From: a virus
Taxonomy: Duplodnaviria > Heunggongvirae > Uroviricota > Caudoviricetes
Direction: 5' to 3' (one strand)
IMG/VR virus record: IMGVR_UViG_2534682295_000008
Length of the DNA: 6,413 bases
Shown here: positions 330 to 512 of the stretch, piece after piece
How the letters are laid out: each line of letters begins with the position of its first letter
Numbering within the stretch: the stretch's first letter is position 1
Position numbers and translations under genes: made by a program
Notes under the pieces: generated by a model
What the model was told of the DNA's origin: nothing
What the model saw: only the letters and a program-made list of their open reading frames with translations
The model's database searches: none

Positions 330-366
330 CGCGGGTTTTCGCTATTTATGAAAATTTTCCGGGATC

Positions 367-377
367 CATGTCCGGTT
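367..377 (-). repeat. cosB R3-like element: inverted copy of AACCGGACATG (candidate small-terminase binding site)
   Basis: catgtccggtt at 367..377 is the reverse complement of the aaccggacatg core found at 426..436 and 456..466. It lies about 50 bp from the cohesive end, the position R3 occupies in lambda cosB. Confidence 0.6.
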
Positions 378-420
378 TCTCTTCAAGTTAACTATATGAA
401 AAATATAAAAACAGGTCTTC

Positions 421-436
421 TGTGAACCGGACATGA
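421..436 (+). repeat. cosB R2-like element tgtgAACCGGACATGa (candidate small-terminase binding site)
   Basis: 15 of 16 positions identical to 451..466. Direct repeat spaced 30 bp from the next copy, between cosN and the small-terminase start. Confidence 0.6.
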
Positions 437-450
437 ACAAAAAACAGACA

Positions 451-466
451 TGTAAACCGGACATGA
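451..466 (+). repeat. cosB R1-like element tgtaAACCGGACATGa (candidate small-terminase binding site)
   Basis: Second direct copy of the 16-mer, about 47 bp upstream of the Nu1-like start codon. Confidence 0.6.
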
Positions 467-512
467 CCGGTTTTGTTGTGATTGTGAGGTGAGAGTTTTT
501 GCGAGGTGAGGA

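What the first reader, a model, noticed from the sequence alone, without database searches (positions are those of the whole stretch)
364..468. Three-copy cosB-like repeat array with one inverted copy at the lambda R3/R2/R1 positions
An 11-bp core AACCGGACATG occurs at 426..436 and 456..466 as direct repeats within 16-mers (tgtgAACCGGACATGa and tgtaAACCGGACATGa, 30 bp apart) and once inverted at 367..377. The inverted copy lies about 50 bp from the cohesive end and is separated from the direct copies by an AT-rich 45-bp spacer (380..424), where lambda has the IHF site I1. A partial copy cagacatg sits at 445..452. This reproduces the lambda cosB architecture with a different recognition sequence and is the likely binding array for the small terminase encoded immediately downstream.
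Basis: seen in the sequence. Interest (0 to 1): 0.5.

Follow-up and report, generated by a model that had tools for sequence, protein, structure and literature searches.

The report
cosB packaging site of lambdoid prophage
The repeats are very likely the cosB site, where this lambda-like E. coli O157:H7 prophage's small terminase docks to cut and package DNA: an expected part of such a phage, but with a recognition sequence and DNA-binding domain I did not find described.

Summary
A fourth, one-mismatch copy (462-473) was missed. The partial copy at 442-452 is not conserved.

The window carries lambda's cosQ/cosN, with the cohesive end starting at 318. Next come these repeats, then a Nu1-type terS (513-1022), gpA-type terL, gpW, portal and protease.

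The first repeat sits at bp 50-61 from the cohesive end, exactly the R3 position of lambda and phage 21. The IHF-like core (bp 72-84) and the inverted second repeat (bp 107-118) match the annotated I1 and R2 of phage 21 within 2 bp.

Across relatives with 35-80% identical TerS, in six bacterial genera and metagenomes, the core TCCGGTT is always at the R3 position. The base two positions upstream of CCGGTT co-switches with TerS residue 20: Arg with G, Asn/Asp/Lys/Thr with T, in two or three separate branches of a DBD tree.

So this is a lambda-type cosB serving a TerS DNA-binding domain outside the lambda/21/N15 groups. The third-site orientation differs from lambda, and the IHF core is weak here. 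It is a new member of a known kind. Binding itself is untested.

The parts
287..298 (+). cosQ region (CGGGTCCTTTCC), bp -30 to -19 relative to the cohesive end
   Evidence: Identical to the box annotated 'R4' in phage 21 record M81255 at the same distance from the end. GGGTCC lies 82-84 bp upstream of the first TCCGGTT in 10 of 11 long-cosB relatives.
318..329 (+). 12-base cohesive-end sequence GGGCGGCGACCT (centre of cosN); bp 1 = 318
   Evidence: Identical to the first 12 bases of lambda, 21 and phi80. Near-identity to many lambda-like phages runs through window 200-362 and stops at bp 45.
367..378 (+). R3' box CATGTCCGGTTT (core TCCGGTT 371-377), bp 50-61
   Evidence: Exact repeat. Same position as lambda and 21 R3, bp 50-65. 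Invariant in 23 of 23 haplotypes. The core is present at this position in all 12 distant relatives.
389..401 (-). Candidate IHF site I1 core TAACTATATGAAA (complement of WATCAANNNNTTR, 2 mismatches), bp 72-84, inside the A+T-rich spacer
   Evidence: Same offset (+18 from the R3 core) as zero-mismatch cores in L175, L176, L178 and L181 and one-mismatch cores in L177 and L179. Phage 21's annotated I1 is at bp 72-86. Alone it is not significant: 70% of shuffles do as well.
424..435 (-). R2' box (reverse complement CATGTCCGGTTC), bp 107-118, inverted relative to R3'
   Evidence: Exact repeat. The R3-to-R2 core spacing is exactly 54 bp in all 11 long-cosB loci. Phage 21 R2 is at bp 107-122, also inverted. 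5 of 23 haplotypes depart: 4 carry one substitution and 1 a 30-bp deletion that leaves a single copy.
442..452 (+). Degenerate partial copy AAACAGACATG; probably not a site
   Evidence: 2 mismatches. It varies at several positions in most haplotypes and in PhiR12_1.
454..465 (-). R1'a box (reverse complement CATGTCCGGTTT), bp 137-148, parallel to R2', 30 bp from it
   Evidence: Exact repeat. About half of the haplotypes carry an A-to-G change at bp 139 that breaks CCGGTT. The Enterobacter relative L180 has the same +30 direct arrangement.
462..473 (+). R1'b box CATGACCGGTTT (1 mismatch), bp 145-156, parallel to R3' as lambda R1 is; overlaps R1'a
   Evidence: Present in 20 of 23 haplotypes, and 22 of 23 keep at least one downstream copy besides R2'. 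Relatives L182 and L190 have a third site in this orientation.
513..1022 (+). terS (GTG start, 169 aa). Residues 1-55 form the predicted winged-helix DNA-binding domain, with the recognition helix at residues 15-22 including Arg20. Residues 49-150 match Pfam Phage_Nu1.
   Evidence: Pfam E = 1e-18 for the C-terminal part only. The N-terminal 55 aa has no significant Pfam match. AF2 model, mean pLDDT 81: H4-10, H15-22, loop 23-37, H38-55. RefSeq annotates this CDS as terminase small subunit.
994..2922 (+). terL (gpA-type large terminase), overlapping the end of terS
   Evidence: GpA_ATPase and GpA_nuclease domains. The start follows the RefSeq annotation of the identical prophage.

Best explanation
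Window 367-473 is the cosB subsite of a lambda-type cos. [quoted passage not shown]

The box at bp 50-61 (R3') anchors the large subunit so that it nicks cosN about 47 bp to the left. An IHF-induced bend in the A+T-rich spacer probably brings the inverted R2' (54 bp away) next to R3', so that one TerS dimer can bridge both, as modelled for lambda. The composite third site (454-473) is an accessory site whose orientation is not fixed in this family.

Shown here: the repeats, their exact positions relative to the cohesive end, their conservation, and their co-variation with TerS.

Inferred: binding, bending and the role in packaging.

The specificity cassette, cosB plus the TerS DNA-binding domain (about 363-734), is a mosaic module set between the conserved cosQ/cosN and the conserved TerL-binding half of TerS.
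For: 1. Context: lambda-identical cosQ/cosN, then the repeats, then Nu1/gpA/gpW/portal/protease genes.

2. Position: R3' bp 50-61, I1-like core bp 72-84, R2' bp 107-118 and terS start bp 196. Phage 21 has 50-65, 72-86, 107-122 and 189. Lambda has R3 at 50-65 and Nu1 starting at 191.

3. Non-chance: 0 of 200 shuffles.

4. Footprint: in 23 haplotypes R3' never varies, R2' departs in five haplotypes (four single substitutions, one 30-bp deletion), and the DNA between the boxes is hypervariable.

5. Family-wide conservation: 12 of 12 contigs found through TerS protein alone have TCCGGTT at the R3 position. These have 35-80% identical TerS and come from Klebsiella, Salmonella, Citrobacter, Enterobacter, Pseudomonas, Microbulbifer and metagenomes. 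The eight long-cosB contigs among them also have AACCGGA exactly 54 bp downstream, as do the window and two further long-cosB loci.

6. Protein-DNA co-variation: 7 of 7 distinct DNA-binding domains with Arg20 have atGtCCGGTT, and 18 of 18 with Asp/Asn/Lys/Thr20 have atTtCCGGTT. The Arg/G state sits in 2-3 separate places on a DBD tree. In L194, compared with its 77%-identical relatives, residue 20, the R3 units and a remote site inside terS all switch together.

7. Residue 20 lies in the predicted second helix, 15-22. hhalign aligns this helix with lambda's recognition helix 17-24.

8. Module swapping: prophages with a different TerS N-terminus but a near-identical C-terminal half carry different repeats (GGTTGTTGT) at equivalent positions.

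9. Phage records described as complete genomes, PhiR12_1 to PhiR12_5, carry the same TerS and boxes.
Against: - No binding, footprinting or packaging data exist for this sequence, and I found no paper on it.
- The IHF core in this window has 2 mismatches and is not significant alone.
- The third-site orientation differs from lambda and 21. The exact copy breaks in about half of the haplotypes, so its role is unclear.
- The DNA-binding domain is only weakly similar to Nu1: hhalign probability 30%, and no Foldseek hit at or below E = 0.001.
- The G/T flank co-variation between R3 and R2 is also what a hairpin would produce. Only the single-site relatives and the link to residue 20 separate the two readings.
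- The co-variation counts are not corrected for shared ancestry.
Confidence: 0.85

Rival explanations
1. Only R3' and R2' are functional. The R2'/R1'a direct pair is a neutral 30-bp tandem duplication of R2' with little or no function.
For: The 16-mers lie exactly 30 bp apart. One haplotype (L088) has lost exactly one 30-bp unit. R1'a is broken by a change at bp 139 in about half of the haplotypes. Five long-cosB relatives show only two sites.
Against: 22 of 23 haplotypes keep at least one downstream copy besides R2', either R1'a or R1'b. Relatives in Klebsiella, Enterobacter and metagenomes also have a third site. Lambda's R1 is likewise accessory rather than essential (PMC9026076).
Confidence: 0.2
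2. The inverted repeats 367-378 and 424-435 act as a stem-loop, in the late mRNA or as a DNA cruciform, that regulates terS expression rather than binding a protein.
For: The arms are 12 nt, perfectly complementary and 45 nt apart (367-378 and 424-435). Flank changes between relatives are compensatory in form. The MFE fold pairs them.
Against: Folding energy is ordinary: z = -0.40, and 64 of 200 shuffles fold at least as well. The primary sequence TCCGGTT is conserved across distant hosts, not merely the pairing. Short-cosB relatives keep the motif at the R3 position with no nearby partner. The flank base tracks a TerS residue. There is no T-run terminator.
Confidence: 0.04
3. The boxes bind some other DNA-binding protein, such as a phage late regulator or a host factor, not TerS.
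For: No direct binding data exist. The DNA-binding domain has no significant Pfam match.
Against: The boxes always accompany this TerS N-terminal domain and change when that domain is swapped. One box base co-switches with TerS residue 20. The position relative to cosN equals that of the R sites of lambda and phage 21 (experimentally defined for lambda, PMC9026076; annotated as putative in the 21 record).
Confidence: 0.04

Closest known systems
Phage 21 cosB (R3-I1-R2-R1; gp1 small terminase), GenBank M81255
   Same: Same cosQ and cohesive end. R3, I1 and R2 lie at the same base positions within 0-2 bp, and R2 is inverted. The R boxes share CATGTC: phage 21 has TTTCATGTCGGGCCTT and this window CATGTCCGGTTT. 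The terS start is at bp 189 in phage 21 and bp 196 here.
   Different: The box continues CGGTT here rather than GGnCC, effectively one base longer. The TerS N-terminal domains are not detectably similar by BLAST or Pfam. Phage 21 R1 lies at bp 150-165, parallel to R3. Here the exact third copy lies at bp 137-148, parallel to R2.
Lambda cosB (R3, I1, R2, R1; gpNu1)
   Same: Same overall architecture and distance from the nick site. R3 is at bp 50-65, and terminase measures 47 +/- 2 bp from the R site (PMC9026076). [quoted passage not shown]
   Different: The recognition sequence is unrelated: CGTTTCC against TCCGGTT. The R3-to-R2 core spacing is about 62 bp in lambda (my count from the sequence) and 54 bp here. 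The DNA-binding domain lies outside the N-terminal part of Pfam Phage_Nu1. The third-site orientation differs.
Monarch / N15 pair: complex cosB versus simple cosB with a remote rR2 inside gene 1 (Feiss laboratory, PMC4669245)
   Same: The TCCGGTT family shows the same split. Long cosB with R3-I1-R2(-R1) occurs in this window and its enteric relatives. Short cosB has a single or tandem box 12-23 bp before terS, plus an inverted box inside terS at +172 or +181, about 190-205 bp from R3.
   Different: The DNA-binding domain and box sequence differ: N15 TerS matches this protein only over residues 59-164. This window belongs to the complex branch and has no site inside terS.

Membership tests
Lambda-type cosB (R3-I1-R2-R1) | Lies immediately right of cosN, between the cohesive end and the small-terminase start codon | tested here: met
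   Cohesive end at 318-329, boxes at 367-473, terS start at 513 = bp 196. Lambda Nu1 starts at bp 191.
Lambda-type cosB (R3-I1-R2-R1) | [quoted passage not shown] | tested here: met
   R3' at bp 50-61. Lambda and 21 R3 at bp 50-65. The cosQ-to-R3 distance is constant at 82-84 bp in relatives.
Lambda-type cosB (R3-I1-R2-R1) | Three related R sequences | tested here: met
   Three exact 11-mers plus one 1-mismatch copy; 0 of 200 shuffles.
Lambda-type cosB (R3-I1-R2-R1) | R2 is inverted relative to R3 | tested here: met
   367-378 (+) against 424-435 (-). Spacing is 54 bp in all 11 long-cosB loci.
Lambda-type cosB (R3-I1-R2-R1) | R1 is parallel to R3 | tested here: inconclusive
   The exact copy 454-465 is antiparallel to R3'. 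The overlapping 1-mismatch copy 462-473 is parallel. Third-site orientation varies among relatives.
Lambda-type cosB (R3-I1-R2-R1) | An IHF site (I1) lies between R3 and R2 | tested here: inconclusive
   TAACTATATGAAA has 2 mismatches to the consensus, and 70% of shuffled spacers do as well. It sits at the same +18 offset as zero-mismatch cores in four relatives, and at the position of phage 21's annotated I1.
Lambda-type cosB (R3-I1-R2-R1) | The R sequences are bound by the winged-helix domain of the cognate TerS | not testable with these tools
   Indirect support only: residue 20 co-varies with a box base, and domain and boxes swap together.
Known packaging specificities (lambda/phi80, 21, N15/Monarch) | R-box consensus and TerS recognition helix match one of the described classes | tested here: not met
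   The box TCCGGTT differs from lambda/phi80 CGTTTCC and 21 CATGTCGG. Lambda, 21, phi80, N15 and Gifsy-1 TerS match only residues about 59-166. N15, Monarch and Gifsy-1 boxes were not read directly.
Pfam Phage_Nu1 (PF07471) small terminase | Match to the profile above the gathering score | tested here: met
   67.9 bits against a cutoff of 30, but only profile positions 62-163. The N-terminal 55 aa gives no Nu1, MerR or HTH_17 match, unlike lambda and 21.
MerR/excisionase-like winged HTH fold (the fold of the gpNu1 DNA-binding domain) | Predicted structure superposes on such domains | tested here: inconclusive
   The model has helix 4-10, helix 15-22, a loop or wing at 23-37 and helix 38-55. 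The best Foldseek hits are RdfS excisionase, MerR-family N-terminal domains, RacA, BldC and 6hn7/6hlk, all with E above 0.2. hhalign against lambda, 21 and phi80: P = 6e-4, probability 30%.
N15-type simple cosB | A single R3 site, no IHF site, terS starting about bp 80-90, and a remote site inside terS | tested here: not met
   The window has three or four boxes, terS starts at bp 196, and there is no TCCGGTT/AACCGGA inside terS. Distant relatives of the same TerS family do have this layout.

The most novel reading that the evidence does not exclude
The boxes and the 'MATQxEVAxHL' TerS domain define a packaging-specificity family of lambda-like cos phages that has not been characterised. It spans enterobacteria, Pseudomonas, Aeromonas and Microbulbifer.

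In it, one recognition-helix residue (Arg20 versus Asn/Asp) may set G-versus-T discrimination at a single base of the R box. That would create sub-specificities that decide which of the many co-resident O157:H7 lambdoid prophages, all sharing one cosN, can package each other's DNA.

The family also evolved complex and simple-plus-remote-site cosB layouts, in parallel with Monarch and N15.
Probability: 0.5. Interest if true: 0.55.

Novelty: new member of a known kind. Interest (0 to 1): 0.42.

Why it matters
**Prevalence.** At least 80% of the stretch 300-1022 (cosN, these boxes and terS) is present in 1141 of 5426 complete E. coli genomes, including O157:H7. These strains carry several lambdoid prophages with the same cohesive ends.

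**Why specificity matters.** Which terminase recognises which cosB decides whether defective prophages and virulence-gene carriers can be cross-packaged and mobilised.

**What the data offer.** A short, well-defined recognition sequence and a candidate single-residue, single-base contact (Arg20 with G) give a directly testable handle on packaging specificity. They also provide a third natural comparison beside lambda/21 and N15/Monarch for how cosB architecture evolves.

**What is not new.** The kind of element is not: every lambda-like phage is expected to have a cosB.

Tried and rejected
- A protein search with the 60-aa DNA-binding domain alone returned only truncated E. coli fragments. The four-sequence profile worked.
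- The genome-contig scan gave only 4 loci, none of this cosB class.
- Two viral-contig scans were swamped by near-identical E. coli prophages. The scan with P0103 gave one locus.
- A sequence search of PDB gave nothing meaningful.
- Foldseek gave only weak winged-HTH hits.
- Literature searches for the motif strings, for cosB with prophage terms, and for the PhiR12 phages found no description of this site.
- Hairpin reading rejected: z = -0.40, and single-site relatives keep the motif.
- Partial copy 442-452 rejected as a site: it is not conserved.
- The minus-strand ORF 342-542, and the hypothetical CDS annotated over cosB in PhiR12_1, were treated as spurious. They overlap the cos site, and the RefSeq prophage annotation has no gene there.

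Full report
**What is in the sequence**

The 11-mer AACCGGACATG occurs exactly at 367-377 (minus strand), 425-435 and 455-465.

The 16-mers at 421-436 and 451-466 lie 30 bp apart. A further copy with one mismatch, CATGACCGGTTT at 462-473, overlaps the last repeat and runs in the orientation of the first. The stretch 454-473 is therefore a near-palindrome.

Chance does not explain this. There are 8 matches with up to 2 mismatches against 2.0 expected, and none of 200 dinucleotide shuffles reaches 8. The 7-mer core TCCGGTT/AACCGGA occurs nowhere else in the window.

**Context**

Window 287-362 matches the right end and first 45 bases of lambda: the cosQ box CGGGTCCTTTCC and the cohesive end GGGCGGCGACCT starting at 318. 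Identity to dozens of lambda-like phages stops at 362.

Downstream lie these genes:
- terS at 513-1022
- gpA-type terL at 994-2922
- gpW
- a lambda-family portal
- an S49 protease

The stretch 300-1022 is 100% identical to prophages of E. coli O157:H7, and 1141 of 5426 complete E. coli genomes carry at least 80% of it. Phages PhiR12_1 to PhiR12_5 carry the same terS and boxes at 96% DNA identity.

**Geometry against known cosB sites**

Positions counted from the cohesive end:

| Element | This window | Phage 21 (annotated, M81255) | Lambda |
|---|---|---|---|
| R3 | bp 50-61 | 50-65 | 50-65 |
| I1 (IHF core) | 72-84 | 72-86 | 74-86 (my reading of the sequence) |
| R2 (inverted) | 107-118 | 107-122 | about 107-122 (my reading of the sequence) |
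| R1 | 137-148 and 145-156 | 150-165 | about 153-168 (my reading of the sequence) |
| terS start | 196 | 189 | 191 |

Sources are and PMC9026076. R3, I1 and R2 coincide with phage 21 within 2 bp.

The third site differs. In lambda and 21, R1 is parallel to R3. Here the exact copy is parallel to R2, and only the imperfect overlapping copy is parallel to R3.

**Population footprint**

Twenty-three distinct haplotypes of this cos come from IMG/VR prophage contigs and one E. coli genome:
- R3' is invariant in all of them.
- R2' departs in five haplotypes: four carry one substitution, and one has lost exactly 30 bp, leaving a single copy.
- The DNA between R2' and R1' is hypervariable.
- The partial copy at 442-452 varies in most haplotypes, so it is unlikely to be a site.
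- R1'a is broken by an A-to-G change at bp 139 in about half of the haplotypes.
- R1'b is present in 20 of 23.
- 22 of 23 keep at least one downstream copy besides R2'.

**The small terminase**

Pfam Phage_Nu1 matches only residues 49-150. The N-terminal 55 residues match no Pfam family significantly, whereas the same regions of lambda and 21 match Nu1, MerR and HTH_17.

Lambda, 21, phi80, N15 and Gifsy-1 TerS align only from about residue 59 onward.

An AlphaFold model (65-sequence alignment, mean pLDDT 81) gives helix 4-10, helix 15-22, a loop at 23-37 and helix 38-55. This is the helix-turn-helix-wing-helix order of the gpNu1 domain.

Foldseek's best hits are excisionase and MerR-type winged HTH domains, plus entries 6hlk and 6hn7 from the PICI Rpp/TerS paper. 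All are weak, with E above 0.2. hhalign aligns residues 5-34 with lambda 6-34 (P = 6e-4, probability 30%). That places Arg20 opposite lambda residue 21, inside lambda's recognition helix 17-24.

**Comparative test**

A profile search found 183 proteins with this 'MATQxEVAxHLxLxxRxLRxL' domain. I fetched 12 encoding contigs chosen by protein identity alone: 80% to 35% identical, from Klebsiella, E. coli, Salmonella, Citrobacter, Enterobacter, Pseudomonas, Microbulbifer and metagenomes.

Results:
- All 12 have TCCGGTT at the R3 position.
- The eight with a long cosB also have AACCGGA exactly 54 bp downstream, as do the window and two further long-cosB loci (11 in all).
- An IHF core sits at a fixed +18 offset in 10 of these 11 long-cosB loci.
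- That core has 0 mismatches in four loci, 1 in two and 2 in four.
- The window's own core has 2 mismatches. It is not significant alone, since 70% of shuffled spacers do as well.
- The third site is absent, direct or inverted, depending on the lineage.

**Protein-DNA co-variation**

The base two positions before CCGGTT is G in all 7 distinct domains with Arg20. It is T in all 18 with Asp, Asn, Lys or Thr at that position. On a neighbour-joining tree of the domains, the Arg/G state appears in two or three separate places.

The clearest case is L194. Its relatives are 77% identical and have QVRNL with TTTCCGGTTCCGG. L194 has HLRRL with TGTCCGTGTCCGG.

These counts are not corrected for shared ancestry.

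**Simple-cosB relatives**

Pseudomonas LPPA33, Aeromonas phiARM81ld, E. coli vB_EcoM-705R4 and others have one or two tandem boxes 12-23 bp before terS. In phiARM81ld these lie at bp 54-68 from the deposited end.

Seven of ten such loci scanned (an eighth, L223) also have an inverted AACCGGA inside terS at +172 or +181, in the codons for an 'EPE/KPE' stretch. This parallels the remote rR2 that the Feiss laboratory proposed for N15 (PMC4669245).

In L194 this internal site is AACCGGACATG, the G class. In L207 and L092 it is AACCGGAAACG, the T class. So it switches together with residue 20. The window has no internal site, just as Monarch lacks rR2.

**Module swapping**

Prophages L003, L010 and L011 have the same cosQ/cosN and a nearly identical TerS C-terminal half. 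Their N-terminal domain is different, and they carry different repeats: GGTTGTTGT at about bp 51-59 (+), 112-120 (-) and 189-197 (+).

The specificity cassette is therefore about 363-734 of the window.

**Rivals**

- *Hairpin formed by R3' and R2'.* Not supported. The folding energy is ordinary, z = -0.40, the primary sequence is conserved, and single-site relatives keep the motif.
- *Another binding protein.* Unlikely given the link to TerS residue 20.
- *Third site as a neutral 30-bp duplication.* This remains possible.

**Verdict**

This is a lambda-type cosB for a TerS recognition domain that I did not find described. It is a new member of a known kind. Binding and packaging remain to be tested.

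Noticed in passing
L003 452-660; L010 and L011 901-1130: Another cosB class behind the same cosQ/cosN. GGTTGTTGT repeats sit at about bp 51-59 (+), 112-120 (-) and 189-197 (+), with a different TerS N-terminal domain (MAFLLNKSDMASSIGISVQAFDKWGVPP...). The C-terminal half of that TerS is almost identical to this window's.
   Followed up: partly
L184, L185 and L093 at terS +181; L092, L094, L194 and L207 at terS +172: Short-cosB relatives carry an inverted AACCGGA inside terS, in 'EPE/KPE' codons within an otherwise variable acidic linker, about 190-205 bp from the R3-type box. This is analogous to N15 rR2. Its flank co-switches with TerS residue 20.
   Followed up: partly
window 362/363 and about 734/735: Mosaic joints. 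Near-identity to many lambda-like phages ends at 362 (bp 45). Identity to prophages of the other cosB class resumes at about 735 (TerS residue about 75). So cosB plus the DNA-binding domain behave as one exchangeable cassette.
   Followed up: partly
L088 (IMG/VR 2675903621_000013), aligned to window about 425-454: One haplotype has lost exactly 30 bp, one repeat unit, leaving a single R2'/R1' hybrid. This looks like unequal crossing-over between the direct repeats, the process Feiss proposed for the origin of N15's simple cosB.
   Followed up: no
window 367-378 versus M81255 273-288 and 316-331: The boxes share CATGTC with the phage 21 R boxes (TTTCATGTCGGxCCTT), although the two TerS DNA-binding domains are not detectably similar. 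Common ancestry or coincidence is unresolved.
   Followed up: no
window 347-361: TATGAAAATTTTCCG lies at bp 30-44. It is identical in lambda and differs at two bases from the sequence annotated as IHF site I2 in the phage 21 record.
   Followed up: no
L004 (NZ_AP018488) 6695-10400: In strain PV15-279, whose DNA is identical to window 300-1022, terL and the portal gene are annotated as frameshifted. Defective prophage copies therefore keep an intact cosB/terS.
   Followed up: no
L001 1577-1699 (PhiR12_1); window 342-542 minus strand: A 'hypothetical protein' CDS is annotated on the opposite strand across cosB in PhiR12_1, and a 66-aa ORF exists there in the window. It is probably spurious, because RefSeq annotates no gene there in the identical prophage.
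   Followed up: partly
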